A stretch of 64,000 nt of DNA from Lingula anatina (taxonomy: Eukaryota; Animalia; Brachiopoda), in assembly GCA_051362555.1 (NCBI GenBank), contig CM120645.1, positions 13,826,001 through 13,890,000 of the forward strand. Direction: 5' to 3'. Positions 353 through 36,813 of the stretch are shown piece after piece. The translations under genes and the position numbers were made by a program. The notes below the pieces were generated by a model that did not search any database, was not told the origin of the DNA, and saw nothing but the letters and a program-made list of their open reading frames with translations. The first letter of the stretch is position 1; each line of letters begins with the position of its first letter.

Positions 353-3300
353 TCACTCCTTTTCGTCTGTTCCATTGGCAACAGCTTCTTTAGCAAAACG
401 ATTGGAAGAATCTTCTTTTGGATTCAGTTTTGCCAAGCAGGAGAACCCAACCGTCGTCAACTGTTGAACTGAAAAAGTTGTTAAACATTTCTTGAGTAGT
501 TGAATATTACAAATGCGTTATATATACACGAGTCTGTAGATAAACCACACATAAATTCAATGTTGACATTACAATTAATTCCCTTTCATTTCGCCCAAAA
601 ACATTCAAAATTACTGAAGTATACGCATTTTATGTTTAAATAAAAAGATGATAGATGAACATCTTCCTATCCTGTTAGGTATAAGAATATTAGGACAGAT
701 GTGCACGTATAAATAATTGTCTATCTAATTAAATAAACAGATGGTCGAATTAAGTGCATTCCATTGAGGTTCCACTAGCCAGTAAGTTATATATTTTTGG
801 CTAATGGCTAATCGCAAAATAAAAGAACAAAGTTGCACACTTATATCGTGAAGCTGGGTCTTCAAAACATCTGCTGTGACGTCAGTGTCAAGACCATGTT
901 CTAGTAAACCCATAATTTCTTTGAAAGGTTGTTGAATGCTATCCTGTAAGGAGACCACAATGTGCATAAAGTTTTGAAAAAATACAGACATAACTTTCGG
1001 CATTCCTCCTCAAGATCTTCTTATTTGTTGACATTTTTGATCTGGTATAAGTGAAGCTAACGGAGGTAGCCATGCAAAAAACATTGCATTTAAGATATCA
1101 CAGAAGAGAACAGTATCCTTATTGATAAATAAGAAATCTTAAGAGACATCTTACTTGTCCATCCTATACTGTTAATCACAAGACTAAACGTTTATCATGG
1201 TACTTTAACAATTAAAACGTGACCGTGTGTATAATGTTGCTTTCTTTTCACATAGTTTTTAAACGTATATCAGAGTGCTGCCTAAAGTGACAAGCTTCAG
1301 TTGATATATTTAATATTGTGTGGATAAGAGCGTCATCAAACATCAGTTACTTTTAAAAATCTTAAACAGTATCAGTAGAATTGAAAAAAAAAGAAAATGT
1401 CAGAGAGAAATATAAATTTAGTGCATTATTGCTGCCGACAATTATAGGTTATCCCTTATTAGCTGTAATTTTCAACTTACTCTAACGAATTTCATTATCT
1501 CCGCCTTCTCCAGGATATCAACAGTGTGATCCTGCTGGTTGAGTTTTGCCACGTCTAGTGGGGTGTCGCCATCGTTGTCTGCCGCCTTGGTGTTCGCCCC
1601 TGCTTCCACCAGTAGTTTCACAATTTCTCTGTTACCTTGCATGCAGGCCAAGTGCAGCGGCGTCATTTTATACGCATCGCGGATGTCTGTCGCAGCTCCA
1701 AGCTCCAGGAGTTTCTCCACCACAGCGGGGTGTTGTTCCAGAACGGCGTGGTGGATCGGGGTAAGATCCTCGTGTGCGGAATCAGCACATTTATAGTACT
1801 TGTCATCAATTTTTTTTTCAATGTCTTCGGTGGGATTTTCTCCCCATCCTGAGTACAAAACCTTACCGTAATCTCCCACATCTATATTTCCTCTTTTTAT
1901 TTTTACAAAGAAGTTCGCAAGAAGTTTTCTCTTGACGTAAACATAATGCCACACGAGTCTTTCTCCATCCTTATCGCGTACTAAGTATATCATATCACCT
2001 ACGTAGAGATTACCTCGTTTGTTAACCAATCCAGGATGTGTTCTCAGAATGGCATCCAAACACTGCACTTGTCCACTGCTTGCTGCCAAGTGTGCTGGAT
2101 TTTTGCCCTCGTTGTTTAGAACAACTGGATCCGCCTTATAGTCATTTATCAAACATTTTACCACATCAACATGGCCATTTCTAGATGCTTCACACAGAGC
2201 GGTGTTCCCGTATTTGTCTTGGATATTTGGATCAACCCTACGACCGTGATTCCTTCTCAGAAGGGCATCCAAATATTGCGCTAGTCCACGACTTGCGGCA
2301 CAGTTTGCTGCATTTTGTCCATTATTATTTACGATGGTTGGATCTGCACCACCTTCATCTAACAGACATTCCACGACGTCCAGGCCGACGTTATTGAGAA
2401 CTGCGATGTGAAGAGCCGTGTTGCCGTTTTTGTTCTGAATATTTGGGTCAGCCCTAACTTCATTTATCAAATACCTAACCATATCTACATGACCATATCT
2501 AGAAGCTTCACACAGAGCGGTGTTCCCATACGAGTCTTGAATATTTGGGTCAACCCTAAGTTCGTGATTCCTTCTCAGTATGGCATCCAAATATCGCACT
2601 TGTTGACTCCTTGCTGCCACGTGTGCTGGATTTTGTCCCTCGTTATTTAGGATGGTTAGATCTGCCTCACCTTCATCTAACAGACATTCCACGACGTCCA
2701 GGCCGACATTATTGAAAACTGAAATATGTAGAGCCGTGTTTCCGAACTTATTCTGAATATTTGGGTCAGCCTTATGTTCATTTATCAAACACTTTACCGC
2801 ATCTACATGACCATTTCTAGATGCTTCAGACAGAGCTGTGTTCCCGTACTTGTTCTGATAATTGACATCGATTCCGCCCACTGCTACTATTTCTTTCACG
2901 AACTCGACGTGACCGCCCCATGCTGCACACACCAGGGTATTGCTGGTCACAGGTAAACCATGGCGCTGCAGCCTGTCGTATATGTCTCTGAAGACATCGC
3001 TGCGGCATCGAGACACGTTAAGTCTTCCATATCTGACACCATACTTTTCTTGATGTCGATGTTCGGAAGATCAGTGAGGTACTCCACCACGTCATCGTAC
3101 CCCATCCTACAGGCACGACCCAGGGCTGTTTCACCAGACTCTGTGACAGCATTCAGGTCTGCACCCATATCAAGAAGAAACTTCACACCATCTAGGAATC
3201 CTACACCGGCGGCATAGTGCAGTGGTGTAAAATTGTCTGAGTCAGTAATATTTACCAAATTATGGTTAAGAGTGCAGAGTTCTTTTAACTTATCAATGTT

Positions 3301-4950
3301 TTGACTCCTTACAACCTTGTGAATTAGCTTCATTCCACTCTCAGTTTTCCCTAACAAATCAATTCGGTCTGCCACACTCTTGCTGTGTCTCTTTACAGCT
3401 ATGTCTTTGGCAGTACAGCCTTCAAGTTCACCAGGGTGAGCGCCACTTGTGACCTGCGTTGAAAGTGTCGCCCAATCAAAATGTCGCCATATAGTGATAG
3501 CTGCAAGTTCGTTATTGTGAAACGCTGCAGCATGAAGGACATTGAACCCATTTTCATTCCTGTACTCCAGGACTTTGTTTCTGTCCACCTCGCGGGCAAT
3601 CCTATCAAGCATGTACCAAAGCTTTGGTCGTGCGATGGCGGAATACAGTCGGTGTAACGGATCAGGTATTATTGAAATGTCTTCGGTGTTTTCTGCTGAA
3701 ATGAAGGAATGTTTTTTTTTATATTAACTTTCTTTGTGCTATAAAATCAGATATTTGACACAAACAGCATTATGTCATGCTTCTTGTCTACTAAAGAAAC
3801 TAACATGTGCATAGCAGGCCTAAAGTCACTGTACGTGGTTCACTGACATTTAACTGCGCATCGCTACTAATCTAACTACGAACCTTATGGAATGGAATGT
3901 CTCTGTTAAATCAAGGATATTAAGAAGGAAGATTTTGGTTCACTCTGTGTACATTGTTTGGCTATCAACGTTACTGTGGATCAGAGAGTGTGTCATCTTT
4001 CCCCTGTTGGAAAGAGACCGAGAAGATTCCTTTATTCGTCCATGAGTGACTATCAGACATTTTGTGACAATATTCTTACCTTGCGCCGGCATAACAACCT
4101 GCAAATCATCTTCATCCCTCGTATTATCTGCCTGAAGAAACCAGTTGCTGTCTCCTATTTGGATGTTTTGACTATGGTTGATGCTAATCATCTGAATATT
4201 TGGGCTTGTTAGTTTACTTGGCACTGTAAAATAACATTAACTCAGTTTACCATGTAAAATTAAACTATGACAAGTCGTAGTGAAGTGGCCAATGTTCAGG
4301 CTTAGTCTTGGCAGTAAACAGCCTCATTAAAATGAAAATATCTTTAGCTAAATGTTAACGTTTTAGACCGTTTGTTCTTTTGTTTTATCGTACCTTCTTC
4401 CCGAGTCCATGATTCTTGTCTGTCCAGATTCAGGATCATCAGCTCTAAAACATCCCTTTTCTTAGCTATGTCAAAAAGAATTTCTTCTTTATTTATCTTA
4501 GCTCCTTCCCTGTCCAGTACAATAGAAAGCCGGTCATCTTGTCCATAACCTAACAAGGGAAAACAGATTACATTTCAAAATTTAACAGAGCATTCCCCGA
4601 TCCTTTCAACATAACAAAATCGATGGAAGTACATCTAACCTGTATGTACTGTATCCTACATTTTGTAGTCTTTAAAAGTCTTCTGTAAAACTGTGTTGGC
4701 TCGTTTTAATGCATACATACACACACGCACTTTTTATACGTATAGTCTTTTAACACGATTAATTAGCCTGGCTATTTTGTTGTTCAACAGTATTTTGTAT
4801 GCCTCAAAAGTCCAACAAGAGTACCTTGATGGAACGACTGTACTAACCTAAGAGTTGCCTAGCGTCGTGTAGCAGCGCCTCCATTGTTGTTAAGATACAT
4901 GTTTCCCTCTTCTGACGGTCACATGAGTAGATGATACAGGTGCTGCCCAT
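353..4950 (-). CDS. CIDE-N-like + RHIM-like + ankyrin-repeat protein, 6 coding exons, one frameshift at ~2999 (possible null allele, pseudogene or assembly error)
   Basis: Exons 4950-4848, 4549-4394, 4223-4080, 3695-1481, 943-841, 468-353, all GT-AG and phase-compatible (1,1,1,0,1). N-terminus MGSTCIIYSCDRQKRETCILTTMEALLHDARQLLGYGQDDRLSIVLDREGAKINKEE...LMILNLDRQESW; then ISINHSQNIQIGDSNWF; ~18 ankyrin repeats (TPLHYAA, GNTALxxA, TPLHLAC, TPLDVAK). Exon 4 switches from ORF 2947-3612 to ORF 1472-3016. About 945 aa if the frame is restored, 383 aa as read. The last two exons are less certain (gtgtgc donor at 840). Confidence 0.8.
1481..3695 (-). CDS. Large ankyrin-repeat exon (exon 4) of the CIDE-N/RHIM/ankyrin gene
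   Basis: Acceptor ttcatttcag| at 3696, donor AGA|gtaagt at 1480; ORFs 2947-3612 and 1472-3016 both carry ankyrin consensus repeats. Confidence 0.9.
4080..4223 (-). CDS. Exon 3, carrying a RHIM-like motif (IQIG core at 4153-4164)
   Basis: tttacag| acceptor, G|gtaaga donor, 144 nt, phase 1-1; QMISINHSQNIQIGDSNWFLQ fits the RHIM pattern (hydrophobic residues, then [IV]Q[IVLC]G-x-x-N-x-hydrophobic). Confidence 0.75.
4394..4950 (-). CDS. Exons 1-2, encoding a CIDE-N (CAD-type) domain-like N-terminus
   Basis: The spliced ~80 aa follows the CIDE-N layout by eye: strand + DR-x-x-R, helix (TMEALLHDARQLLG), IVLDREG-x-x-I-x-x-EE (cf. LVLEEDGTxVxxEE), then LMIL...W. Confidence 0.65.
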
Positions 4951-5621
4951 CTTTCTGAATGAAAATTATAATAAATATCTCAATCTTTGTCTTCAATCTC
5001 ATATAGCGTGCATGTGGTTGGAAGCATACCGATATTTTATTTCCTAAATATAACATGAGTACATCTGTAGACCTGTGCATGTTGTAATGTCATAATCGGT
5101 CAATGGGTGATTATCTTTCTTGTACTTTTGCACTCTTGTACTTTTACCAAGAATCGATTCTAACCATATAAACGAGTACAAATGCACTTGTTTGGTCATA
5201 AGAGTAGTCACATGAGTAGATGATACAGGTGCTCCTCATCTTTCTGAATGAAAATAATAATAAATATCTCATATTCATGTCATAAGAGAGTGGGCTGACC
5301 GCTCGGATGTTTAAAATTTCCGCTTCAGTGATTTTGTCATCAGCTGATTTTGTCATCAGCTGTTACAAAATCATGTGTTTTTCCTGATTGGTGTGAATTA
5401 ATCAGGTTCAATATATGGTGATTAATTAAGCCTATTTAAGGTAGTCACTAAATCCAGTATGACACATGACAAAAAAGTTCTGTGATGCCACGTCTGACAC
5501 TGGAAGAGCAACTCCGGGCCCTGGGGATGCTGTAGGTTAGGTTGAACCAAAGAGATTTGAACACGTGAACTTGCATTTTAATAATCATTTTTAATGATCT
5601 TTTCTGACCTTTATTTCACCC

Positions 5622-6172
5622 TCAGGCCTAACCAACTACCAGACTCGGCACCTAAGGATCCTGAATTAACCGGTATATCGGACCACACTACCCGTTTTCA
5701 AGGTGTGTGTCAGATCGCATTTCGGAGTATCAGTCAGAACACCGACAGGATGAGCCCACGCTTGGCTGTCACCTTGACTGGATAGTAAACGATTGTCGTA
5801 TTTAATCGCTATATGATTTTAAAACCAGGTGCATAAATTTGAAAGCCACCTAGATGAACCATAGACTGCCACATTAATCTAATACAGTGCAAAAAAGCTC
5901 TATCAAAAGTTGTTAAAACATTCAAACCGAATGTCGTAAAGTACCCATATACCCCCATTGAGACAATGAAATAGAGTACTCTAAAGTAAGAGTACAGTTT
6001 AAGGTTGTTCAGCCGAGCGTGGATGAGCCCGCAGTCGTCCTACAAAATTTGTTCTGGGGTATGATACTCCGAAGTGCGATCTGACACACACCTTGAAAAC
6101 GGGTAGTGTGGTCCGATATACCGGTTAATTCAGGATCCTTAGGTGCCGAGTCTGGTAGTTGGTTAGGCCTGA
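5622..6172. mobile_element. MITE-like element with ~110-bp terminal inverted repeats
   Basis: tcaggcctaaccaactaccagactcggcacctaaggatcc...ttcggagtatca (5622-~5732) is a near-perfect reverse complement of ~6062-6172; no coding capacity, no clear TSD. Confidence 0.85.
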
Positions 6173-9298: not shown

Positions 9299-10289
9299 TT
9301 GACATTGGGTTGATGAAACAAAGTTGAAGACCATATTAACTTCATGAGGAACGACTGATGATTTATAATGATTATTAAGCACCTATTTCAAAGTCGCTGC
9401 ACCTAGGGAATGGAGTTTACACCCATTTATACTACGTAGGAATGACTCCCCAGCAACTTTTTAAAAGGAAACTCAAGACTTTAAAAGGTATTTATATAAT
9501 TTTTACAAACAACTTTTTAAAGTGAATTATGAGGTAACATTTTTTAAATTAAAATTTCTAAATTATCTGTTTCAATAAATTTTTAAATTTGGATTTTAGA
9601 CTCAACTAAATATTTTTATTATTATCTAGACATGTTGCGTTTCAATATTAAATGGAAGTTTGCCATTTTTCTAGTTGTTATAAACGTTTATCGTATATGG
9701 TAATTATTCAAACAATTTCAACACAAGTCGACTATTTTCCACAAAAAAAAAAAATGTTTCTCTAGTTTTCTTAGGTTAATTGAGTAGAAATTTACTGTGT
9801 TTGAAAAACAATTACTATCATACCACCTTTACATTTTATTGGGCCAATTGCAAGTGCAATGCATAATTTCATCATGAGAATCTCTTCTTTAAATGAGAAG
9901 TTTTCTCCGTTAATTTAGTAAATAAGAAGAAGAACAAGTTCACAGCTGATGTTAAAGAATAGGAAAACAATGCACTCTCCAGTACTTTGTACACAGAATA
10001 GATCTTTATAACAATTTGAAAATCCAAATTAATATAATTTAACACTAAAAAATTTGCTATGAAATAATTATGGTACTATAACAGTGAGAACATGTATTGC
10101 ACAGATGTTTCTTCCGATTCAGAATCTATATTATACAACGTCCAGTAAGACAAACATTGATCCTATAAACACTGTCATTAAGAAAGATAAGCAGTGACAC
10201 TCTCTGCCAACACTTTTTCGTGTCCAAGTCTAAAAATAATACTGATCAACAGAAACAAAATACGCTGCTCATTTAGTGTACAAACTGTG

Positions 10290-10490
10290 GTCATGTTTCT
10301 TCATGTTTCAGAGACAGACAACCTGTCAGAATACTTGACACCACATATTTTACAGCCAAACGGCTCTCTCCTGTGTGAACGTGCATGTGCTCTTTGGGAT
10401 AGTGAAGGCGAGAAAACATCTTTGGACAAAATGTACACTAGAAAGGCCTTTCCCCTGTTTTTTTTCTGCTGTTTATTTAAGTCACCTATA
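10290..10490 (-). pseudogene. Degenerate duplicate of zinc-finger exon 11326-11544, just downstream of the stop codon
   Basis: Collinear nucleotide match, e.g. ccacatattttacagccaaa and tctttggacaaaatgtacac in both; 1-nt indels (ggctctctcc vs ggcttctctcc; gagacagac vs gagcagac) break the frame. Confidence 0.85.
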
Positions 10491-10513
10491 ACAAAGAAAA
10501 AACACTCCATGGC

Positions 10514-12362
10514 TCAATTTGTGTACAAATCCTCAGAGGACAAAGTCACCATGGTAGCCGGTTCAGGAATCTCATGACCTGGATCTGGTCCTGTCATGGC
10601 TGACATCAGCGCCCCTGTGTGGCCAATGGTATCAACAGCGCTGTTCACATATTCCTCTGTGTGTGGTGTGGCAGATGTAGTCACTGTTTGTATAACATCA
10701 ACTGGATTCCGTGTTTGAAGCATGGAGATGAACTGCTGGTGATTGGTGGAGGATGCTTAAATGTAGAATAATGTTATTTTTCACAACTATTTGAAAATGG
10801 CGAAAAATTTGGATTTACAGAAAACAGATCCCAAAAACTGACTGAATGTTTGATTATGTGTTGCAAAACCAGTGTTTTACAATTTTTTTTCATTCAGTTA
10901 AAAAAATAACATTAAGGTTGATTCTGAAACTAAATAATTTTTATGCAACTGTACACATGAACATTGAGAAACAAAAATAAATACATTGCAATTTCACATA
11001 TTCTTTTTTATCTGTCACTTTTAAAATGTTCTCTGAATTTGTTACTTCCTGTGTATAAAGGACTTCATTTACCCATTTCATCCTTAATAACAAAAGTCAC
11101 TGATGGCTGTGGACTGTCTTGGGCCTGACCTAGAGTGCCCCCTGTTGGGAATTGTGACAATAAAAGGCAGCGGAGACCTAAAAAATAAAGGTCATACATG
11201 TAACAGTCACTTCACTTCAATAATAGTATGTTACTTACAAAGAAAATCTGTAACACACAATGTATTTTAAATTTCCTTCAATACTTTATGTTATTATAAA
11301 ACCACAAAATTAATATTAAACTCACTCTGTTGAGGTTCTCTGTTGTCATGCTTTTTCTCATGTTTCAGAGCAGACGACCTGTCAGAAAACTTGGCGCCAC
11401 ATATTTTACAGCCAAATGGCTTCTCTCCAGTGTGAATGTGCATGTGCTCTTTGAGATAATGAAGGCGAGTAAACGTCTTTGGACAAAATGTACACAAGAA
11501 AGGCCTTTCCCCTGTATGTTTTTTCTGGTGTCTATTTAAGTCACCTGCAACAAGGAAAAAGTCAATGAAGCTGTAACATGCCCATAAAAATTAACATCAA
11601 ATTCCATACTTAAAAAAATAACAATAATCGTAACAGTGTTTCTCGACGTACAATCCTTAAATTTGAAGTTTAGGGTGTGGCTACCATCACTAACAATACA
11701 ATAAATCATAACAATACAATGTCCCATATTAAACAAAATTAAATATCTGACATGAGAAGCACCTTTAAGTTACCTTTATTAACAAACTTCATAGGACACT
11801 CCTCACACTTGTAATTGCGTATATTTTTATGGCGACGCACGTGCGCCTGCAGGTGTGTTTTCTGTGCAAAGGCTTTCCCACACCAGTCACAAAGGTGATT
11901 CTTCTGGTTAACATGGGTGGCAAGGTGACTCTTTAGGCTGCCTGACTGTATAAATGCCTTGCCACATAGTGTGCATCTGATAATTAAATAAAATTTATTA
12001 ATGATTAAAAATAAATTAATTTCAGCTGCATTTGTTTATTATAGCAGACAATGTCGCAATTTTAAGTTTGAAATATTTAAGGCAACCTTGCAGCTTTATT
12101 TGTAAAAATACCCTTCATCTTTTAATAGGGGCAAATTGTTTTACTTTCAGAGTGTCTATATATACAAGCTTTATGATTTTTAACACCAAAAAATGATACT
12201 CAGAACTAGAACCCATGAGACACTTTTCAAAATTTCACTGTAAGATATGCCATTATAACTTTTATTATGAAACACGTTTCATGGTTCACCTTAAAAACCA
12301 ATATAAGTGTCAGAGTAGTCATACTGCTGATTACATATTGCATATTGGGGCGAATTTGTTCA

Positions 12363-12398
<36 letters not shown>

Positions 12399-12626
12399 CA
12401 CACAAAAGGCCTATCTCCTGTGTGTTTCCTCATGTGTATCTTCAAACTGCCATTCTCTGTGAAGCACTGATGGCACTCCGGGCATTCGTATGGCTTGCTA
12501 CCAGTGTGGGTCCTCTCATGACGGAGCATGTTGGACTTGATACTGAAGTCTTTGTTACATACTGAACATCGAAATGGTCTCTCACCAGTGTGTTGTCTCA
12601 TGTGCACTACAAGACAAAATATTCAT

Positions 12627-12664
<38 letters not shown>

Positions 12665-15600
12665 AGCATAAATTTATACATTTTAAGGCCAAATTTTCAT
12701 TGTTGAACATTGCATTCAAAGGCCAATTTCTTGCTTTCCTCATCCCCAAATGCCTTGAAATGATCACTTAAGAACAAATCAGAACACACAACACCCATAT
12801 TTTGACAGTGAATGATGGTATTGCAAACTGGGCGTTTTTGAAATTATATTATTCTGTCGCAGTGTGTAAATGACATTCAATATTCCCAAATACAATACAC
12901 TTTTCAATAATTGTCTTATTTATAAATAGATTTAATAACATTAACTGTGACTGCATATGGGATTTGAAGAGTCTTAACAATGACCTTACAAAGCAACTAT
13001 AATCTCACCACTAAAAGGGCTAAAAGTGTAACAAATTAACTAAAAGTGTAACAAATGAATTAAAAACACACTCACAATACAGTGACCCTGTCCCTGAGAA
13101 AACCTTGCCACATTCTTTGCACTGAATGGAAGTGCTCCGCTTCACTCTTGGCATGTTAGGTGCTTTATTCATCTTTTCTTCTTTCTCTCTTTCCTGCTCC
13201 TTGTTTGCTTCTTCCTCGCCCATGCACTGCCTGCGGTGTTTGCACATGTTGCTACGAACAAGGAAGCTCCTGTAGCAGCCTACGCACTTGTGAGATTTGA
13301 TGCCAGCATGGGACTTCATGTGCACTATGGAGATATAATAATTATTACACACTGTTGTAGAATTAATCAAATGTAATCAATGACAAAAATAAAAAATTAA
13401 ATACTTACAAGTGTACCGAATAAACTGTAGTACCGTCAGTAATATAGAATATTTTTAGGTGGATTTATCGAAGAATGTTATGCACCTCATGGCCAGAAAA
13501 AGGAGTGAACCATTGTTCTTGAGGAATTTGGACTTGAGCATGAATTATTGAGCAAGATCAAAGAAAGAAAGGTTATTTTTCTGGGCCACCAACCACGACT
13601 AAAAATATCAGAGTTGTTAACATCAACATTTCAAAGCATGCCGATAAAGGGAAAATGTGGCAGGCAGATGGAAGACCAACATACATGTCTGCATCTAAAC
13701 AAACAAAGAAGAGATTTTTTGCCCCCTTATCCCTCTCAAGTTTGTTCCCTTAACAAGTTAGCTTCCAACAGGCACTGTGAGAGGGGATGAGCATTTACTA
13801 GCATTCTTTGACACTCACCACTGAGAGCTGACCTATGTGACAGGTATTTTCCACACAGGTGACATTTGGGTTTCCCCTGGGCCTCGGCTGCTTGGGCATC
13901 TGGATTGAAAAGTGTTCAAAATATCATATCTAGTCATTTATCGATGTACATCAGGCCCATAACCAGGGGGGATGGGGGGTTTAAAAAACCCACCTTTTTT
14001 TCTGGGAAAGGTCTACTCTGGTTACCCTAGGTTCTAGATTCCGGTATTGCCAGCTCGATCTTGATTTCATATATAACCCATATTAGCAATACCAGGCTCT
14101 AGCGAACAGCGGCAATCAACTCGGGGACGTTCTTCTTCAAAATTCTGCCTGGGGCGCTTCCATATTTGGAAGTCACACGTCACAGCTGTGTCTGCTTGGA
14201 TCCATATTTGGAAGTCAAAAGTCTCGTACGTCACAGGTTTGGCCGCCTGGAGCTGCCTTTCCCGCCTTGCGCTGAAGTTATCTCGAGCACACGAGACAAG
14301 AAGCAATTAAAGTGCCTGACGCGGAGTTAGAAGTTTGAATTGAAAATATCTTGCAGTCGAAGGTCAGTGCCACAATACAAGCAACATTCTGCTGTAAAAA
14401 CTGATTTTTGTGTAGCCCTTATAGTGGTATCAGGCATACAGTGTAGCTGTCAAATTTGGCACATGGCAAGCACGTGTATTGTGCACGTGTATATCTCAGG
14501 ACTAAATGTTCTTTGATAAGCAAAAAATACAAAAACATTGGATATATCTTTTCTTTTCGAAGAATATTATTCATTTTTTCATTTATTCTTTAAATACAGT
14601 AAATAAAATTAAATAAAGCAGAATTAAATTTGTTTTAAGTTTCATTTTGGTCTAATGACATTCAACTGCAGTTTCACTGCGGAGCAGTTCTATTTGACTG
14701 ACGGAAGCCTAACATGGCCGCTGGTCTTCAGAGCTAGTAACAAGGCAGCAAAGCTGTCGAATGTACAGACAAAGAACAGAAAATAAAGATGCAAATAAGT
14801 GAAAAATTAAATTTTCACAAAAAACTGTTAAATTGCCAGAAAAATTTACCAAACAGACTGTGTTGCCAATTGAAGCTGTATGTTAGACCCATGTTTCTTT
14901 CCTGTAAGTTTGAGAACAGTAAGTGACATGATTTCCCTTAAATGGTCATCATAGGAGCAGTGCCCAAAATAGGGGTTTCTTCAAATTTTGATGCAACATT
15001 ACATAATGTTTAACAGCATAATGACAATCAAATGTTATTAATAAAATATTAGTAACATGGACATTCAGAAAATGTGACAAGCAAAAGTCTTCAAGATCAT
15101 GGAACTTTAAAGTCACACCTTGAAAATGCCAATATGTGAAAAACTAAATTTTCACAAAAAACTGTTAAACTGCCAAAAAAATAAATAAATAAATAAATAA
15201 AAATACCAAACAGACTGCATTGCCTACTGAAGCTGTATTTTAGTCCCATGTTTCTTTCCTGTAAGTTTGAGAACAGTAAGTGACATGATTTTCCTTAAAT
15301 GGTCATCATGGAAGCAGTGCCCAAAATAGGGGTTTCTTCAAATTTTGATGCAATATTACATAATGTTTAACAGCTTAATGACCATCAATTTTTAATTATA
15401 AAATATTAGTATCACAGATATTCAGAAAATGTGACTAGCAAAGGTCTTCAGGCCCATGGAACTTCAAAGTCACGCCTTGAAAATGCCAAAATGTAAACAA
15501 GACAGCACTGTTCTGAAATGGGTTTATTTCCATTTTTAACACTTTTTTAACATAAAACAAAATAAACATTTTACTGCCATTTTATATGACCAACTAAGAA

Positions 15601-18600
15601 AATTGATGAGATGGGAAAAGTATCAATAGAACAGTGTTAAATGTCCAATTTCCTCCATTCTGAGATTCTGAACATAGTAGATGATTGAATCTGACAAACT
15701 GCAATGATATAAGTTTATTTCCATTTTTGACACTTTGTTACACAATACATGATAACAAGTTTACCATGTTTTTTACATAATCAACTAACAATGTTGTAAA
15801 GATGCAGGAAATATCAAACAAACACTTTTAGGCATCTTATTAGTTAAATAATGAGACTGTTAACATGCCTAATAATTGAATCTGAGGAAATGTGAAAAAC
15901 AGTATAACTTCTAAAATAATGGCCCGATTATGCTTATTTTCTAACTCAACCTGCGTTTTAGTAAGATTGACCACTCCTGTGAGTATAATTACAATTGGCC
16001 AATCCGTTTTTCTTATATTGTGTTATCAGTGTTGTATTTATATTGAAAATAGTGAAAAAACAGCATAAATTCCCTAAAAATGGCCTAATCATGCTGATTT
16101 TCGAACTTGACCTGCGTATTATGAATATTCATCAGTTCTGTAAGTTTCAAGTCAAAAGGTAAAATGGTTTTCCACTTATCGTGTTATCGGTGCTGCATAT
16201 ATGCTGAAAAAAGTGAAAAAACAGCATAAATTCCCTAAAAGTGACCCGATCATGCTGATTTTCGAACTTGACCTGTGTATTATGAATATTCATCAGTTCT
16301 GTAAGTTTCAAGTCAAAAGGTAAAATGGTTTTCCACTTATCGTGTTATCGGTGCTGCATATATGCTGAAAAAAGTGAAAAAACAGCATAAATTCCCTAAA
16401 AGTGACCCGATCATGCTGATTTTCGAACTTGACCTGCGTATTATGAATATTCATCAGTTCTGCAAGTTTCAAGTCAAAAGGTAAAATGGTTTTCCACTTA
16501 TCGTGTTATCGGTAAAAGTGCACGGCGACGACGACGGCGACGACGACAGACGCAGATGATGGCTATATGTACAGACACATCTGTGTCTGTACATAAAAAT
16601 GACTCCAAGGTATATTTAATATTTACAAGCTAATTTTTTACGTTGCTCTGACACTCAGGGTAACTCTGGTACAAAAGGCTTTCATGGTTAAAAGTCCACT
16701 TTTTCAGAAAAGGAATCCCCTTTTTGAATTGCTGTCTACAAGCCTGTAAATGACATTTTAGTCCTATTACTGGTTTACATTTCAGTCTTGTTAATGTTGT
16801 TGCATCCTTCCATTTGAGACTTCCACTGAGAATACAGGTGGAAACTAATTATGAGCCTTAACAAAGAGGGTGCTTGTGGCTCCATCTATCCAGGACATAA
16901 TACAGAGTGATCCAACATCTACTGCACAGAAAATGTAACAAGTTTAAGAATATTTTCACCTGTATTCTCAGTAGACCAGCCAAAATGTTCAAATCCGAAA
17001 CTTAATGTTGGATTGTAAAAAAACCTCGGATGGTGAAAAAATTTAAAATAAAAATTATGCTTACTCCTGCAGGCTTTTATGTGGCTAGAAAGATGGGATT
17101 TGAAATGAAAACTTTGGCCACACAGGTCACAGGTTAAGGCTGGGTCTCCATTATGAACCTTCATGTGATCTGGGGAAAGACAAGTTAATTCTGAAATACA
17201 TGAACATCACATAATAAACTACAGGTTAACAGTTTATATCACTAGTGGGCTGGATTTGGTCTTAAAGTGCAATTTAAGTTCACAAATGATCTTACACAAT
17301 CTTAATCATTACAGCAGTAGTCTTAAAATGGACTGAATCTGCTTTTAAGATCAAAAATGATCTAACATCTACTTAAGTGGTCAAGCAGTTCCCTCCCCTC
17401 ACAATGGGGGACACCTCCCCTCACAATAGAGGACACCTTTGCTCACAATAGGAGAATGTGTAAGGGGAGACAACTTAATTGACTGTCAGACTGGAAATGG
17501 TCTTACTCATGTTTTAAGATCATGTAAGACTATTTGTGTTCTTAAATTGTATTTTAAGACCATATCAAGCCCACTAGTGTATGTACATTAGAAGGAAAAA
17601 CTACTAAATCAACAAAAATGATAATCTTTATCTATCGATCTGCATGTAACATTATCATAAACACAATTAAATCCCTCATGCATGTCCTCCTTGAATTATT
17701 CACACTCTTTAAAATGTGTAAAAAAGCTGCCAGACTCTAAGAGATATTCATTTACAAATTATTATCAACCTGATACCTACAAAGATTAAAAACCTACCAC
17801 TCAAGGCAGTCTGACTCTTCAAAACTGTGCTACAAACTGGGCAGGTCTTGTCGGGTCCAAGATCATCTTCTACTTGTGCAGCGCCATCTACACTTTCTTC
17901 ACAATTTTCATCTTTGCTCGAGAAGCTTGAAGCTGGAGAGTCTGGAAATTATAGTTTGTTTATCTGGATTTTAATATACTGTACATTATCAATGGAAAGA
18001 AAAAATATTTTACATGATCACTTCACTTTAGCATTATCTACCAATAGATTTTTTTGAACAATTTGAAAATCCAAATCAATTTTCATGTTAGGCAATATGT
18101 ACAGTAGTACCTGGTATATTCATTTTGTTGATGTACATGCATGTATATATAACTATCAAATCCTCCAATAAAAAAATGATTACACCAGGCAAACACTGTC
18201 CAAGAAAAAAGTCAAAAAATAAACTGAAGAGATCAAATATCGCAACTCACTTTGAAATTAATCAGTTTCCTGTGAAAGATCTTAGATTAAGATTGCGGCA
18301 TTGGATTCATCTTAACTATTAAGCAGCATTTTTATCCACTTATATTCATTATTCACTTTTGTTTGATGACTAAAACATTCATTTGTATGTTAAAAAATAG
18401 GTTATAAAAACATTTATAACTATACAGAACATACCACCTCTGTCCCCGCCTGCCAGTTTCATCCTGCACTTGCTGACGTGACGCTTCCAGTTACTCTTCA
18501 CAGCCCAGCACTTGCTGCACTTGGGACATTTGTACGGTTTATACTCTGAGTGAACACGCATGTGAACTGAAATATAATGTATAGGAACTGTTACATATTA

Positions 18601-21048
18601 ATGTGTGGCTAAGACCCACTCAACTGTTAAAACATGGGTCCTTTTCACACTGAGCGATATACTTTGTGATAAGTCTGTGCAAGTTGGTTAATTGTGTTAT
18701 GGGAGGTCCTGTATAACCCTTTTGGTCTCTGGAGATTTTACTCAGGCTGTGTTCAGAATAAAAGTTAATCAATCTTTCTCAGCTGGAGTTCTACAATTGC
18801 AAATTTTCCGCAACATCAGAATCTGCTGGTTTAACACGTTTGGAAGCAAGGTTGTCCCAGGTATTGCTTTAAGCTTCCTTACTGGGTGACAAATAAGAGG
18901 GGATAATAAATATTAATGCATTCTGGTTTTAATTTCAGAAAGGTCAATTTTAAATAAGTGAGGTAGTAGAGGTTTTACAATAAATTCAATTATTACAGAA
19001 TGAAAAAACTGTGGAGCACCTACTGTTTAATGAAGATGTATTGCAGAGAATCTTCCCACATTCTTTACATGTTTTCTTCTTGGAACTTGCATTACATGCT
19101 CCTTCTAAACCTTCAGACATATTTACAAGTTGTTGATCTTTATCCATTGTAAAAACTTTCAAATTGTCAGGATTCTTATTTTCAGCCTTAAATTCACCAA
19201 ATTCTTTTATTTTATCGGTTCTTTCTTTGGAAAATATTCCGAAGCTTTCTTGGATATGTTCCCCCATAGTACAGCCATCTACAAGTTCACAACTTTTGGT
19301 TGGCTGCTTGTCAAGACCCAAAATCTCTTTTTCTACTACTGTTGGTTGTTCAGTACTGTGACTGTTTATTTGAGTAAATTTTCTAAATGCATGTCTGGTC
19401 TGATATCTTGTTCTCCCCAATGTGCTGCTATCACTCTCTTTAGCACTATGACTCTCATCTGAGTGAGCAGCTGTGATACTGTGAATGCCAGCGTTCTCAG
19501 ACTCAGTCAGGTGATCCCAGACTGGTGAAACTGTGGTACATACAAGGTCGGTCTTTTTCTGACTTATACATTTTAAACAAGTCGCCGAAGAAGTACTAGT
19601 ACCAGAATTATTTGCCATTCCATGTGAACTTATCTCAGATTCCACCTCCATTCTTTCTGTTCTTGCTTTGGAAGTTCTGTATAGTTCATTTTGTGGCCCA
19701 ATCATCGCATCTTCTTTACATACACCTTGTAAGAGATTCAGAATTTTTTCTGTAAAGGCCTTCCACAACAACCATGCTTCTTTCCCTTTCTCCTGTGGCA
19801 AAGTCTTCACAATTGAAATGGCATGTTCTAACTGAAAAGAAGCAAAATATCTTCAGGATTAAATTTGAAGCATACTAGTAAAATAAAATACTATAAAAAA
19901 GCAAGTTCATAAAACATTTTATAACTCTGAGGCTGTGGAGTCACTTGAGTGTCAAACAGTGCAACATACTGTATATGCCACCTCGGCCCATTTCTGGCAA
20001 CTATTAGTATTTGCAAGGACCTGTTTTGTCTTACTTAATTCCTCTTAATTCCAAACAGATATCTCTTCCTAGATTGCTACTGCATTTAGATGCAGAGAGA
20101 GAGAGAGAGAGGGAGAGATTGAGAGAGAGAGAGAGAGAGAGTGGCATCCGTTTCATAAGTTGAAAAATTATAATCCTTCACCTACTGTAAAAAAAGTAAC
20201 ACCAATTACTTTATATGACAAATCATTAAACCAGTGTTACTTAATTGATACATTAAGGCTTCGTTCACATGCAATGCCTATTTTCTAAATTCTGTTTTCT
20301 ATTTGCGGCATGTCTTATGATCACGGTCTGTGCACTGAATATCCCGCCGCGTAATTACTGGCAGCGCGAGCCAGTTACTATAAGTTACTATAAGTAACTG
20401 GCTCGCGCTGCCAGTTACGCGGCGGGATATTCAGTGGACAGACCGTGATCATAAGATAGTGCGAATAGAAAATAGAATTTAGAAAATAGACATTGCATGC
20501 GAACGAAGCCTAACTTAGACCACAGCCTAAAGTACAGGTTATGTATGTTTACTGATAGTTCAAAATTATTCTAGTAAGGTGCAGGATTAATATGGGACTA
20601 TAACTGTCCTGTTGGATGATACATACACTCAAATAATTGATGACAGCAAAAATAATTACTGAAAAGTGTTGACAAATTTAAACACATGAAAAAATAAATA
20701 AACAAAGAAACGAGATATACTGTACTAGTACAGCTGTATTTCTATACCAAAACAAACAGGTTTTTTTTTTCTAATACTGGGTACTTAGGTTTCTGAGGAA
20801 GTAAATATATACTTTCGTCAATGTGGTTCAAGGTACATTCCCCTTGAAACCCCAACTGATGCGTCAAACTCAGACTGCAATAGGATTGATACAGGTGACA
20901 GGCCTCCGAATCGGACTTGTCTTCATGCAACCACCCCTCCCCACCCCCTCTCTCAAGACTATAGGTCCAGGCTCACCGTCTCTATGAGTACAGCAAGGTC
21001 TCCCTTTCGGTACTCCCATTCCAGCGAAGATTCTGCAATTTGATTCAT
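10514..21048 (-). CDS. Multi-zinc-finger protein, 14 fingers: three C2H2+C2HC pairs then eight tandem C2H2 fingers
   Basis: Phase-compatible GT-AG exons: 21048-20977 (start tentative), 19831-19024, 18566-18435, 17941-17798, 17169-17065, 13899-13819, 13324-13076, 12606-12402, 11976-11774, 11544-11326, ~11177-11073 (acceptor ambiguous), 10755-10514. Canonical HTGE(R/K)PF linkers in the C-terminal array. Confidence 0.85.
14739..16599. mobile_element. Helentron-associated non-autonomous element (HINE/DINE-1-like) with internal tandem repeats
   Basis: Begins aacaagg; atgtacagaca at 14761 matches an arm of the palindrome tatgtacagacac-atct-gtgtctgtacata (16566-16595); internal ~340-bp dimer (14799-15489) and 161-bp repeats; (GAC)n-like microsatellite at 16523-16553; ends in an A run. 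Confidence 0.75.
15890..16512. repeat. 161-bp tandem repeat array, three near-identical copies plus one diverged copy
   Basis: cagcataaattccctaaaa recurs at 16061, 16222 and 16383. Confidence 0.9.
16825..16972. repeat. Short element with a 16-bp perfect inverted repeat
   Basis: actgagaatacaggtg (16825-16840) and cacctgtattctcagt (16957-16972). Confidence 0.5.
17240..17579. mobile_element. CACTA-like MITE
   Basis: Termini cactagtgggct...agcccactagtg, ~70-bp imperfect TIRs, flanked by tat on both sides (3-bp TSD). Confidence 0.7.
20257..20510. mobile_element. PIF/Harbinger (Tourist-like) palindromic MITE
   Basis: ggcttcgttcacatgcaatg...cattgcatgcgaacgaagcc, self-complementary over nearly its whole length, TAA on both flanks. 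Confidence 0.85.
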
Positions 21049-28013: not shown

Positions 28014-28087
28014 AGGCCCTACTGGGATTCGAACCCAGGATCTCCTGTTTACTAGACAGGCGCTTTAACCAACTAAGCCATAGAGCC
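28014..28087 (-). tRNA. tRNA-Thr(AGT): tRNA-Thr (anticodon AGT)
   Basis: GGCTCTATGGCTTAGTTGGTTAAAGCGCCTGTCT-AGT-AAACAGGAGATCCTGGGTTCGAATCCCAGTAGGGCCT: full cloverleaf, intact A and B boxes, followed by T runs (Pol III terminator). Confidence 0.97.
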
Positions 28088-34075: not shown

Positions 34076-35520
34076 GTATAATTTTAGAGTATAGATAGAT
34101 TTTGCCGTTAATAATTTAACGGGCTGGGATAGAAAAGTTCTTCTTGGTGACAGTGTTTATTTAAACATGTACGACTCTGTTCTTGGCTGCAGGAAGTAGA
34201 AGTTGCAAGTGAAAATGTGACGTTATTGTCTCGCATTATCTTAGAGATATCGTATAATTCATTTTACTTGATGTCACAGATTTTTCCGTTGAATAATTCG
34301 GTACTAGGTTAAGTTTTCATTTTCAGTTATTTTATATCATTACAGGGCATACAAATGCTTACAGTGGTCAGGGTTTCGTAATCTTGGGATGTCTGAATTT
34401 GCAGCTCTAGTTGTTACATGTATGATGTACCGTGAAGGTTGCAACATAGCGGGCACCTTTGTTGTACACTGACAAAAATACGTTGAGATTAGTTTTAGCT
34501 CTGCATAATTTACATCCGTTCTCATCTCGCATTTTAAGTATAAGATACATTAGTTGTATAAATCCTTTGTATTAGTTGGAATAGTTTTTGATTTGGTACA
34601 AAATTATATGCTTAGGCCTACTGATTGTACATGTCTATGATGAAGACCCCAGTTGGTGCTTTTAACCGCAGGGGTTGTCATTGTTGTCAATGAAATAGGT
34701 GCCTACAAGTTGGATGCTACTTTGGTTTGCATATTTTAAACATGGGAAGTTATCTCTTTTCTTGGAAAACTCATATTCCACTCATGCAATCATTATTTCA
34801 TTTATGTCATTTTATTTATATATTTATTTATTCAATTTTGTTATTTGTGCATCGATTTTGCAAATGCTTGCCTTTGCATCCCCTCTACTGAAATAGTTGT
34901 TCGAAAAACATGTTCTAATTACCGCATTTCATTAGGATTTAATGGAATCTCCAGAGGCTTTACTCAGCACGTTATTTGACTTGACGTCACTGTGATAATG
35001 CCACAGACAACCTTGAATTCCAAACTGTACAATCACACATGCAAAGATCTAAATTGCTTGAGACACATTCGTTGGCGTTGGATTTATTTTACAGTTGCGC
35101 ATTGATATTCTTAATAAATCATTAACTGCCAGCAATGTCAACTGATTCATCATTATAATTACTGTGTTAGTTTAGTGACAAGTTGGCTCACTACCCGTTC
35201 TTAGGGTATCAAATAAGAGTAGGCCCCTATTCTTCGACGACAAGCATTTGTCGCCCCCCTCCCCCGTCTTTAAAGACAACTGGCTTTTAGTAGACATAGA
35301 TAACATTTTTATTTATTTCTGTCTTTCAGATGAAAATACAGTGGCGACAAGATGTTCCGGTTTAAAAATTCTTATCATCTTTGGTGGAAAAGCACACATA
35401 AGAGGCATCCATTGAGAGAATCCACTAAAACGGCGCGATTTTAGCAGCAAGTGACGAGAGCATTCTCATTCAAAAGAAGAAAAATACGTACAATATACTG
35501 AGATAAAATAAACCAACAAT

Positions 35521-36813
35521 ATGTTTCCTCGGAAATCTGTTTTGACGCAAAGGACGGTAAATGTCATAGTGATATTGTTGTTACTCTTCAATATTTATTC
35601 ATGGCGTCAGACGCAGCAGCAACTGGCGTCGCACACGGAAGATGTAGAACGACAAGGCTTGGAACGTATTGGGCGATCTTCAGGGCTTGAAGAGCAAGAA
35701 AGTTATCGAGCGTTCGTCCAAGTGATGCGGCCACAATCTAATCGTACTGTAAATAAAACAGGTAAACCTTCGAACTCACTCATCAATGTCGTTAAATTCA
35801 GACCCCGGAATAAAACAAACGAGGCACCACCAGGGGTCTCTGGTGACACGGGAGGCAAGACAGGCCGCACCGGGCAAAGTGGGGACACGGGCCAACCAGT
35901 GCGCTCGGTTCACAATTTTTACGGAAAAGTTTCTGCCGAGCAGTTTAAAGAGGCACTGAAGGTCAATTATTCAAATCCACACGATTTTAAATACATTATT
36001 AACCCTGGCGAGAAAACGTGTGGGCAGTCGCCTGTGTTTATTTTGACTTACGTGCATTCTAGCCCTGAACATTACAAACGTCGATCAACAATCCGCGAAA
36101 CTTGGGGCAATACAAAACTTTTCCCAGACTTGCAAATGCGTATGGTGTTTCTTATAGGGAAATCCCCATCGAAAACCGTCCAAGATTCTCTATTAATGGA
36201 GAGCGATAGATTTAACGACATAATCCAAGAGGACTATTTGGATAGTTATAAAAACCTAACATATAAAGGGATTCAAGGTCTTAAATGGATGACAACGTAT
36301 TGCCGCCAGGCGGAATTCGTACTCAAATCGGATGACGATATATTTATTAACATATTCTCTTTAGTTAAACATTTGAAAACTTTAAAACATTACGGGATAG
36401 CGAAAAGAGCTATACTTTGTCATTTATGGACCCGCATGAAGGTCATGCGCGACGTAAAAAGCAAATGGTATATAAGTCCGGAAGAGTACAAAGATGATTT
36501 TTATCCCAAATATTGTTCGGGCTCCGCGTTCCTCTTTTCGGGAGATATAGTGCCAGAGATGTACGAGATCTCTAAAGTGACCCCCTTCTTTTGGGTGGAC
36601 GATTTCTACATAACCGGGCTCCTACCTTCTCGACTGGAGAACGTAAAACACGAGCCTTTGAACAAAGCTTATTACTTTCAAGCGGATCTGGTGGAGAAAT
36701 TCACCGGGCCCCATTATTACCTGTACATGTTTGCGCATTTACACGGACTCGATAAATTTTATTATATGTGGAATATTATTTTTGAAAAGGAGCGAGGAAA
36801 AAAACCCTCCTGA
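35521..36813 (+). CDS. Beta-1,3-galactosyltransferase-family protein (GT31, Galactosyl_T), type II membrane, single coding exon, 430 aa
   Basis: Signal anchor VIVILLLLFNIY; stem; GT31 motifs RRSTIRETWG, ESDRFNDIIQEDYLDSYKNLTYK, FVLKSDDDIFIN (DxD), YPKYCSGSAF, VDDFYITG. Confidence 0.95.
   Translation: MFPRKSVLTQRTVNVIVILLLLFNIYSWRQTQQQLASHTEDVERQGLERIGRSSGLEEQESYRAFVQVMRPQSNRTVNKTGKPSNSLINVVKFRPRNKTNEAPPGVSGDTGGKTGRTGQSGDTGQPVRSVHNFYGKVSAEQFKEALKVNYSNPHDFKYIINPGEKTCGQSPVFILTYVHSSPEHYKRRSTIRETWGNTKLFPDLQMRMVFLIGKSPSKTVQDSLLMESDRFNDIIQEDYLDSYKNLTYKGIQGLKWMTTYCRQAEFVLKSDDDIFINIFSLVKHLKTLKHYGIAKRAILCHLWTRMKVMRDVKSKWYISPEEYKDDFYPKYCSGSAFLFSGDIVPEMYEISKVTPFFWVDDFYITGLLPSRLENVKHEPLNKAYYFQADLVEKFTGPHYYLYMFAHLHGLDKFYYMWNIIFEKERGKKPS

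What the first reader, a model, noticed from the sequence alone, without database searches (positions are those of the whole stretch)
353..4950. Candidate cell-death/innate-immune protein joining CIDE-N, RHIM and an ankyrin array
Seen: the short ORFs upstream of the ankyrin ORFs splice cleanly (GT-AG, all phase 1) into one frame giving a CIDE-N-like N-terminus, then ISINHSQNIQIGDSNWF, then ~18 ankyrin repeats. The ORF track hides this because exon 1 is under 60 codons. Established: CIDE-N domains (CAD/DFF40, ICAD/DFF45, CIDE, Drosophila DREP) interact homotypically and some form helical filaments; RHIMs (RIPK1 IQIG, RIPK3 VQVG, ZBP1, TRIF) form signalling amyloids. Inference: a protein with two polymerising modules and a repeat region could couple RHIM amyloid signalling to the CAD/ICAD DNA-fragmentation machinery. 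I do not know this architecture from any characterised protein, but could not search for it.
Basis: partly seen in the sequence, partly recalled or inferred. Interest (0 to 1): 0.85.

Follow-up and report, generated by a model that had tools for sequence, protein, structure and literature searches.

The report
Brachiopod CIDE-N, RHIM, ankyrin protein family
A gene family whose closest relatives are from the lamp shell Lingula joins a CIDE-N cell-death domain, a likely amyloid-forming RHIM motif and about 18 ankyrin repeats holding an unnamed domain shared with intracellular bacteria, and likely works as an innate-immune sensor scaffold, although the copy in this window is broken by a frameshift.

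Summary
The architecture is real at family level. Four Lingula anatina RefSeq 'ankyrin-like' proteins carry the same N-terminus and ankyrin array. The N-terminus is a divergent CIDE-N (Pfam cut-off reached in two paralogs; PDB profile E 8e-7; predicted fold TM 0.72-0.77). The RHIM has a canonical tetrad but scores under Pfam's cut-off; an unnamed 129-aa CIDE-N protein outside the family has the same motif in the same place (44 of 20,000 shuffles). RNA reads, mostly from paralogs, show four of five introns spliced; the RHIM-to-ankyrin joint was not seen. The CIDE-N charge patches are recoded, which argues against simple docking on CAD/ICAD. Best reading: an expanded, enzyme-free immune sensor scaffold with two polymerising modules; function untested. 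Eight paper searches found no description. New variant of a known kind; interest 0.62.

The parts
4848..4950 (-). coding exon 1 (34 codons + 1 base): first two strands and first helix of CIDE-N; preceded by a splice acceptor, so a further 5' exon is expected
   Evidence: matches P0001/P0002 N-termini; RNA loose ends at 4952-4957
4394..4549 (-). coding exon 2: rest of CIDE-N (terminal Trp at about 4409-4407)
   Evidence: joints 4848/4549 and 4394/4223 in RNA
4080..4223 (-). coding exon 3: linker with the RHIM-like motif
4144..4200 (-). RHIM-like motif, residues 95-113; tetrad IQIG at 4164-4153
   Evidence: Pfam RHIM E 0.048, 13.7 bits < 20; tetrads IQIG, IQIG, IQVG, FQIG, FQIG in P0001-P0004, P0009; shared with P0012
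1481..3695 (-). coding exon 4: capping region, 15 ankyrin-like repeats, insert domain, 3 ankyrin repeats
   Evidence: Pfam Ank_2 E 1e-27 and 1e-89 on the two ORFs
2992..2995 (-). frameshift: window is 4 bases shorter than public contigs here; premature stop at 2949-2947
   Evidence: +2 behind 2993 and +2 behind 2994 in X1 and X2 contigs, +2 in 4 of 4 X14 reads
2103..2849 (-). internal tandem duplication of a 318-base, three-repeat unit (82% identical copies); repeat number differs between paralogs
   Evidence: self-BLAST; 127, 238, 309 and 344 residues between fixed landmarks in P0001, P0003, window, P0002
1790..2020 (-). unnamed ~70-residue alpha/beta domain inserted in the ankyrin array; also in Anaplasmataceae, other bacteria and animal-like ankyrin genes
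   Evidence: no family or fold match
   Evidence: matches P0001/P0002 tails; RNA joints 945/1483 (6 reads) and 461/841 (6 reads)
353..468 (-). coding exon 6 with the stop codon at 355-353
   Evidence: matches paralog C-termini
5207..5271 (-). partial duplicate (95% over 65 bases) of the exon 1 acceptor and start, inside a high-copy repeat that begins at about 5083
   Evidence: contig depth 6,000-10,000 over 5083-5600 against about 100-250 in the gene's 5' part

Best explanation
This is one copy, frameshifted in this window, of an expanded Lingula-type gene family that encodes a CIDE-N domain, a RHIM-like motif and a variable ankyrin array with an inserted domain, and the intact proteins likely act as enzyme-free intracellular immune sensor scaffolds. 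Inferred steps: (1) the ankyrin array, whose repeat number differs between paralogs, would bind a pathogen- or damage-derived ligand, with the inserted domain as an extra binding surface; (2) binding would cluster the N-termini; (3) the CIDE-N domains would polymerise head to tail with their own kind or with short CIDE-N+RHIM proteins such as P0009, using a recoded charge pattern rather than the CAD/ICAD code; (4) clustering would nucleate the RHIM into an amyloid that recruits other RHIM proteins (Lingula has a RIPK1-like protein with a RHIM, PMC12119088), giving NF-kB or cell-death output. Shown: domain content, family expansion, splicing and expression of the family, the break in this copy. 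Not shown: ligand, polymerisation, partners, output.
For: CIDE-N: Pfam 23.5 bits = cut-off for P0002, 20.1, 16.3 and 17.9 for P0001, P0003, P0004; 28.8 for P0009; A1 profile hits FSP27 CIDE-N E 8e-7 and DREP2 E 1e-4; Atlas model of P0002 1-90 has CIDE-N proteins in rows 1-4 of 10, TM 0.72-0.77; the window's spliced residues 1-134 score 40.8 bits on a profile of 5 ordinary CIDE-N, best shuffle 12.5 (1,746 of 2,000 reported). RHIM: the only Pfam family on exon 3; fits the (V/I)-Q-(V/I/L/C)-G consensus of PMC9444067; P0012, 26% identical to P0009, has CIDE-N (52 bits) and the same motif just behind it, similarity reached by 44 of 20,000 shuffles, while 0 of 12 other CIDE-N proteins have a tetrad. 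Expression: RNA depth lies on exons and is zero in the bins wholly inside introns in 3 of 3 runs. No catalytic domain above cut-off in 6 of 6 paralogs. Constant N-terminal polymerising unit plus variable ankyrin C-terminus in lineage-specific expansions is the pattern described for marine invertebrate immune proteins, brachiopods included (PMC8195603).
Against: RHIM is under Pfam's cut-off in the window (13.7 < 20) and in P0012 (14.3), and was not listed at all for P0001-P0004 or P0009. Its column identity among 5 paralogs (0.74-0.78) is no higher than that of the ankyrin region (0.77); two paralogs have F at tetrad position 1. Exon 3 found no RHIM structure in the PDB. The RHIM-to-ankyrin joint was not seen in 5 RNA runs; it rests on the reading frame and on RefSeq models. 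Two RefSeq paralogs (P0005, P0006) and P0007 lack the N-terminal modules as annotated. My own AF2 model of the N-terminus was poor (pLDDT 40; Foldseek best E 0.45). Runs X8 and X11 show no exon-specific signal. Reads 95% or more alike are few (9 of 215, 9 of 201, 11 of 160), so this locus itself is at most weakly expressed. Neighbouring genes are not immune genes. No functional data.
Confidence: 0.45

Rival explanations
1. One reading: the CIDE-N docks on CAD or ICAD, so RHIM amyloid signalling drives DNA fragmentation directly.
For: The domain is a true CIDE-N by profile and predicted fold; CIDE-N heterodimers form between DFF40 and DFF45 (PMC7156525, section 9); part of the basic patch (the R55 position) is kept.
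Against: Window keeps charge at 2 of 6 FSP27 interface positions and reverses 2 (K56 to E, E87 to R). The 15-residue acidic segment holds 3-6 D/E and 1-3 K/R in 6 Lingula sequences against 6-8 D/E and 0 K/R in 5 ordinary CIDE-N. Lingula CAD/ICAD were not available to test.
Confidence: 0.15
2. The proteins are inhibitors: they cap RHIM amyloids or CIDE filaments of other proteins (like Drosophila Pirk/Rudra or viral RHIM decoys) rather than start signalling.
For: No catalytic domain; one-sided or recoded CIDE-N charge patches could cap a filament; RHIM-bearing inhibitors are known (PMC4262963, PMC9444067).
Against: Expansion with changing ankyrin copy number fits ligand recognition better than a fixed inhibitor; this is inference only.
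Confidence: 0.17
3. The RHIM-like stretch is an inert N/Q/I-rich linker; the protein is a CIDE-N-polymerised ankyrin scaffold with some non-immune job.
For: Sub-threshold RHIM scores; conservation not above the ankyrin region; paralogs are young, so shared sequence is weak evidence; the bare tetrad occurs 4 times in the window's six frames.
Against: Same motif at the same place in the distant P0012 (p about 0.002); more conserved than the linker behind it (0.57) and than CIDE-N (0.58); reads of an expressed paralog match across 4144-4183 and diverge on both sides.
Confidence: 0.18
4. On this locus only: the frameshift is an assembly error and the copy is intact, rather than a real null allele or young pseudogene.
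For: No public contig or read spans 2993-2994 without extra bases (X1 2 contigs, X2 1 contig, X14 4 reads, X16 2 reads); the rest of the frame has no stop over 576 codons; near-identical contigs of the locus exist in X1 and X2.
Against: The spanning X2 contig is only about 91% alike, so it may be a paralog; a 4-base loss outside a homopolymer looks like a real mutation; the insert has the longest branch of the 8 Lingula rows (0.46); the 5' exon seen in paralog reads has no match upstream and a high-copy repeat sits there.
Confidence: 0.3

Closest known systems
CIDE/DFF family (CAD/DFF40, ICAD/DFF45, CIDE-A/B/C, Drosophila DREP1-4)
   Same: N-terminal CIDE-N domain: best PDB matches FSP27 and DREP2, Atlas fold rows CIDEC, DFFA, DFFB.
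   Different: No DFF40 nuclease, DFF-C or CIDE-C region; followed by a RHIM-like motif and ankyrin repeats; interface charges recoded.
Metazoan RHIM proteins (RIPK1, RIPK3, ZBP1, TRIF; Branchiostoma RHIM proteins; Drosophila IMD/PGRP/Pirk)
   Same: Short motif with the tetrad consensus in a linker between folded parts; in Branchiostoma RHIMs sit where death-fold domains usually are (PMC4262963).
   Different: No kinase, death, TIR, Zalpha or NACHT domain; partner is CIDE-N, a pairing not found in the searches; motif under Pfam cut-off.
Lineage-expanded Death-like/TRADD-N + ankyrin proteins of sessile marine invertebrates (PMC8195603)
   Same: Constant N-terminal interaction unit plus variable ankyrin C-terminus, expanded in one lineage, brachiopods included.
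   Different: N-terminal unit is CIDE-N + RHIM instead of DED/Death + TRADD-N; array holds an unnamed bacteria-shared domain.
Fungal amyloid-motif NLRs with ANK repeats (NWD2/HET-s type)
   Same: N-terminal amyloid motif and C-terminal repeat sensor.
   Different: No NACHT/NB-ARC; a CIDE-N domain would supply the clustering instead (inference).
Ankyrin-1/2/3 (the RefSeq names of the paralogs)
   Same: Ankyrin repeats only.
   Different: No ZU5, UPA or death domain in 6 of 6 paralogs; the names are by repeat similarity.

Membership tests
CIDE-N domain (PF02017) | Profile match at or above the curated cut-off | tested here: met
   P0002 23.5 = cut-off 23.5, P0009 28.8; P0001, P0003, P0004 below (20.1, 16.3, 17.9). 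The window's spliced N-terminus was not scanned against Pfam; 40.8 bits on a local profile, whose members were found with the family profile, so partly circular.
CIDE-N domain (PF02017) | Alpha/beta-roll (ubiquitin-like) fold | tested here: met
   Atlas model of P0002 1-90: TM 0.72-0.77 to CIDE-N clusters in rows 1-4; PB1 rows score 0.71-0.73, so the fold alone does not separate them. Own AF2 model had the strand-strand-helix-strand-strand-helix-strand order but pLDDT 40.
CIDE-N domain (PF02017) | Opposed basic and acidic patches with the canonical interface residues | tested here: inconclusive
   2 of 6 FSP27 interface charges kept, 2 lost, 2 reversed in the window (numbering from PMC7156525); acidic segment weakened. 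Could be a compensated swap or a loss.
CIDE-N domain (PF02017) | Head-to-tail dimer or filament formation | not testable with these tools
   Needs biochemistry; no complex prediction was run on this domain.
CAD/ICAD/CIDE proteins | DFF40 nuclease, DFF-C or CIDE-C region behind CIDE-N | tested here: not met
   No such Pfam family in the window ORFs or in 6 of 6 paralogs.
RHIM (PF12721) | Core tetrad (V/I)-Q-(V/I/L/C)-G | tested here: met
   IQIG in window, P0001, P0002; IQVG in P0003; VQIG in P0012; FQIG (off consensus) in P0004, P0009 (consensus from PMC9444067).
RHIM (PF12721) | Profile match over the ~20-residue motif at the curated cut-off | tested here: not met
   13.7 bits (E 0.048, model positions 2-18 of 22) against cut-off 20; P0012 14.3 bits.
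RHIM (PF12721) | Lies in an unstructured linker | tested here: inconclusive
   pLDDT about 30 over residues 76-126, but the whole model is weak.
RHIM (PF12721) | Tetrad-dependent amyloid and binding of RHIM partners | not testable with these tools
   Needs fibril and binding assays.
NLR/STAND receptors | NACHT or NB-ARC NTPase | tested here: not met
   None.
RIP kinases | N-terminal kinase domain | tested here: not met
   None.
Ankyrin-1/2/3 | ZU5, UPA and death domains after the repeats | tested here: not met
   None in 6 of 6 paralogs.

The most novel reading that the evidence does not exclude
An NLR-free animal immune receptor with an integrated bait: the domain inside the ankyrin array, shared with a conserved protein of intracellular Rickettsiales (72% identical over 65 residues between paralog P0002 and Ca. 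Xenohaliotis), captures that bacterial protein or its target, and the receptor then converts RHIM amyloid assembly into CIDE-N filaments that engage the CAD DNA-fragmentation machinery; short CIDE-N+RHIM proteins (P0009, P0012) are the adaptors of a wider invertebrate pathway.
Probability: 0.1. Interest if true: 0.92.

Novelty: new variant of a known kind. Interest (0 to 1): 0.62.

Why it matters
CIDE-N filaments and RHIM amyloids are two separate polymer systems of animal cell-death signalling. A natural fusion of both, found in a brachiopod family and in a short protein from an unnamed source, suggests that some invertebrates wire them together and gives small, expressible constructs to test it. 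The recoded CIDE-N charges are a natural experiment on CIDE-N specificity. The unnamed insert links an animal ankyrin protein to an uncharacterised conserved protein of Wolbachia, Ehrlichia and Anaplasma, so solving either side would inform the other.

Tried and rejected
No own genome was held, so CAD/ICAD and other RHIM proteins of this genome could not be searched. Pfam on single exons gave no CIDE-N hit. AF2 on the 4-sequence N-terminal alignment was low confidence and its Foldseek rows (FSP27 first, E 0.45) are not counted. Complex prediction of four copies of the RHIM peptide gave no verdict (score 0.01); it is no evidence either way. No RNA holder was listed by the index; same-species raw runs were laid instead. 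Exon 3 against PDB sequences gave only chance hits. The A4 profile found no further CIDE-N+RHIM proteins of 63-226 aa (2 of 21 candidates, both inputs; weak search). Of 11 hits, two (P0010 TPR, P0014 ankyrin) were dropped as spurious. The insert matched nothing in Pfam, NCBIfam, PHROGs, PDB sequences, Foldseek or VIA-align (best Z 3.5) and no viral contig (0 of 51 candidates); the Atlas feature search on it only returned ankyrins. The tree of the insert (93 rows, 77 columns, quick method, 55 of 90 forks open) cannot give the direction of any gene transfer. No CIDE-N or RHIM match was found in the 92 fetched loci, including the 2-3 kb upstream of the animal-like ankyrin genes. The 5' exon of paralog transcripts was not found in the window. 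A small intron at 2993 was rejected: other contigs have more bases there, not fewer. A recalled survey of Lingula immune genes (Gerdol et al. 2018, Dev Comp Immunol) is not held.
Full report
Gene model. The window is animal DNA; no genome was held. On the minus strand, exons 4950-4848, 4549-4394, 4223-4080 and an acceptor at 3695 are GT-AG, phase 1, and read in frame. The frame from exon 4 stops at 2949-2947 after 383 residues, while the ankyrin array goes on in another frame (ORF 3070-1472). With an X at the break the model is 945 residues and about 72% identical to RefSeq protein P0002 along the 873 residues compared (where the tail was mis-spliced).

The break. At 2993-2994, contigs of runs X1 and X2 carry +2 and +2 bases, which together restore the frame; 4 of 4 X14 reads and 2 X16 reads show at least the first +2; no listed record spans the place without extra bases. 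The spanning X2 contig is about 91% alike and may be a paralog. So the window holds either a private null allele (my preference, about 0.7) or an assembly error.

Family. A search with the start of exon 4 gave 6 proteins of 184 candidates, all Lingula anatina 'ankyrin-like' (accessions); P0007 and P0009 were added. P0001 and P0002 carry the full N-terminus; P0003 and P0004 start at the second Met; P0005-P0007 lack it as annotated. Ankyrin copy number varies through a 318-base unit. The window is therefore most likely from Lingula or a close relative.

Expression. No RNA holder was indexed; raw runs with the same species label were laid. At 80% likeness, X14, X15 and X16 cover exons and not introns, with joints 4394/4223 (3, 3, 1 reads), 4848/4549 (0, 0, 4; plus 2 X15 reads with differing flanks), about 1481/943 (0, 6, 0) and 841/468 (1, 5, 0). 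The joint 4080/3695 was not listed here or (listing needs 3 reads; depth there is about 1-2). Most reads are under 95% alike, so they report on the family, not this copy; some come from unrelated ankyrin genes. X8 and X11 gave no exon-specific signal.

CIDE-N. Pfam PF02017 scores: P0002 23.5 (= cut-off), P0001 20.1, P0004 17.9, P0003 16.3, P0009 28.8. The family profile A1 finds FSP27 CIDE-N (E 8e-7), DREP2 (1e-4), CIDE-B and CIDE-A as 5 of 6 PDB hits. Among 1.84 billion representatives it has 11 hits: 2 Lingula family members, 7 other CIDE-N proteins, 2 spurious. The Atlas model of P0002 1-90 is nearest to CIDEC, DFFA and DFFB clusters. The window's own spliced N-terminus scores 40.8 bits on a profile of 5 ordinary CIDE-N; shuffles reach 12.5. 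My AF2 model was too weak to count. CIDE domains polymerise through opposed charged faces; in FSP27 these are R46, R55, K56 and E87, D88, E93 (PMC7156525, section 9 read). Read off, the window has I, R, E and R, E, N there. P0001 has the same two reversals; P0009 has E at 56 with K at 88; P0002 keeps K at 56 and E at 93 but has K at 88. This suggests a private interaction code (inference; 4 sequences).

RHIM. Exon 3 has IQIG, fitting the consensus given in PMC9444067 (passages read). RHIM is its only Pfam hit, at 13.7 bits, under the cut-off of 20. Paralogs keep Q and G. Column identity is 0.74-0.78 against 0.57 in the next linker, 0.58 in CIDE-N and 0.77 in ankyrins. The best independent support is P0012, an unnamed ENA protein of 129 aa: clear CIDE-N (52 bits) followed by the same motif; 44 of 20,000 shuffles match as well, and 0 of 12 other CIDE-N proteins have a tetrad. 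Its organism is unknown. Lingula species have a RIPK1-like protein with a conserved RHIM (PMC12119088, passages read), so a partner can exist. I put the motif at about 0.7 to be a working RHIM.

Insert domain. Between repeats 15 and 16 lies a ~70-residue domain kept in all 7 paralogs that reach it. It has relatives in 51 prokaryote genome loci, mostly Anaplasmataceae, and 41 metagenome loci, among them animal-like ankyrin genes with the insert in the same setting. AF2 folds it well (pLDDT 81; two strands, helix, strand, helix) but no family or fold match was found. P0002's copy is 72% identical over 65 residues to the Ca. Xenohaliotis copy and 67% over 73 to Rickettsiales Sesoko1; the window's best bacterial matches are 54-55%. 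The tree groups the 8 Lingula rows (support 93) in an open fork with Rickettsiales and the animal-like rows; direction of any transfer is unresolved.

Mechanism. See Best explanation: variable ankyrin sensor, CIDE-N clustering, RHIM nucleation, output through RHIM partners (0.45). Rivals: inhibitor (0.17), inert motif (0.18), direct CAD/ICAD coupling (0.15). The design matches the expansions described for sessile marine invertebrates (PMC8195603, passages and section 13 read; no CIDE-N fusion in the passages found). An earlier scan note on a fungal ankyrin gene with a RHIM-like tail (e1-7556318) is a loose analogy, not checked here; sequence and place look-ups found nothing.

Novelty. Searches of the held library: CIDE-N + RHIM 0 papers; CIDE + RHIM 3 unrelated listings; RHIM + Lingula 9, one relevant; CIDE/RHIM/amyloid/ankyrin 73, the 25 listed show none with both CIDE and RHIM; RHIM surveys 30, 20 listed; CIDE-N + ankyrin + invertebrate 2, one checked and irrelevant (PMC7642931, passages), the other seen as listing only; Lingula + DNA fragmentation factor 0; Lingula immunity 4 (listings only). 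Kajava et al. (PMC4262963; first quarter and legends read, figure not seen) has no word CIDE or ankyrin. Subscription papers, supplements, InterPro architectures and a recalled Lingula immune survey (not seen) could hold a prior mention. The proteins are in RefSeq under misleading ankyrin names. Verdict: real, apparently undescribed architecture within a known kind of system; this copy broken; function untested. Interest 0.62.

Noticed in passing
P0012/P0019 (ENA, unnamed source) and P0009 (L. anatina LOC106151926): Short proteins made only of CIDE-N plus a RHIM-like motif (129 and 115 aa): candidate minimal adaptors. P0009 lies on a scaffold of the same length as P0005, which lacks the N-terminus, so the two may be one split gene model.
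   Followed up: partly
L001-L051, match at about 3001-3201: Unnamed ~68-residue domain ends a hypothetical 150-250-aa protein found in many Anaplasmataceae genomes (gene divergent from a miaA-like gene in 6 of the 8 Rickettsiales loci inspected; miaA label from recall) and stands alone as 80-110-aa proteins in Verrucomicrobia, Planctomycetes and metagenome contigs. All named records say 'hypothetical protein'. Candidate new domain family.
   Followed up: partly
L068, L069, L070, L072, L073: Intron-like, animal-like contigs encode ankyrin proteins with the same insert and a related atypical first repeat (0-1 of 2,000 shuffles), but no CIDE-N or RHIM in the DNA held: the ankyrin-plus-insert chassis is older than the CIDE-N/RHIM fusion.
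   Followed up: partly
L061, L062, L067, L087: The insert domain also ends a different, non-ankyrin protein on contigs whose ORFs begin like spliced exons.
   Followed up: no
window 39959-63400: Two long chitin-synthase-like genes in head-to-head inverted arrangement (minus strand about 39.9-53.8 kb, plus strand from about 56.2 kb; Chitin_synth_2 E 2e-5 on one exon) with a broken Tc1/mariner transposase between them (54472-55464).
   Followed up: partly
window 10250-19850, minus strand: C2H2 zinc-finger gene upstream, with a degenerate duplicate of one finger exon at about 10290-10480.
   Followed up: no
window 35512-36810 + and 28014-28087 -: Single-exon galactosyltransferase (PF01762, E 1e-47) and a tRNA-Thr(AGT).
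   Followed up: no
window 3651-4903: RNA run X8 has low, intron-spanning coverage from one orientation only, opposite in pattern to the spliced reads: possible antisense or unspliced transcript.
   Followed up: no
window 5622-5732 and 6062-6172: 111-base inverted repeat pair (99% identical) upstream of the gene, probably ends of a mobile element.
   Followed up: no
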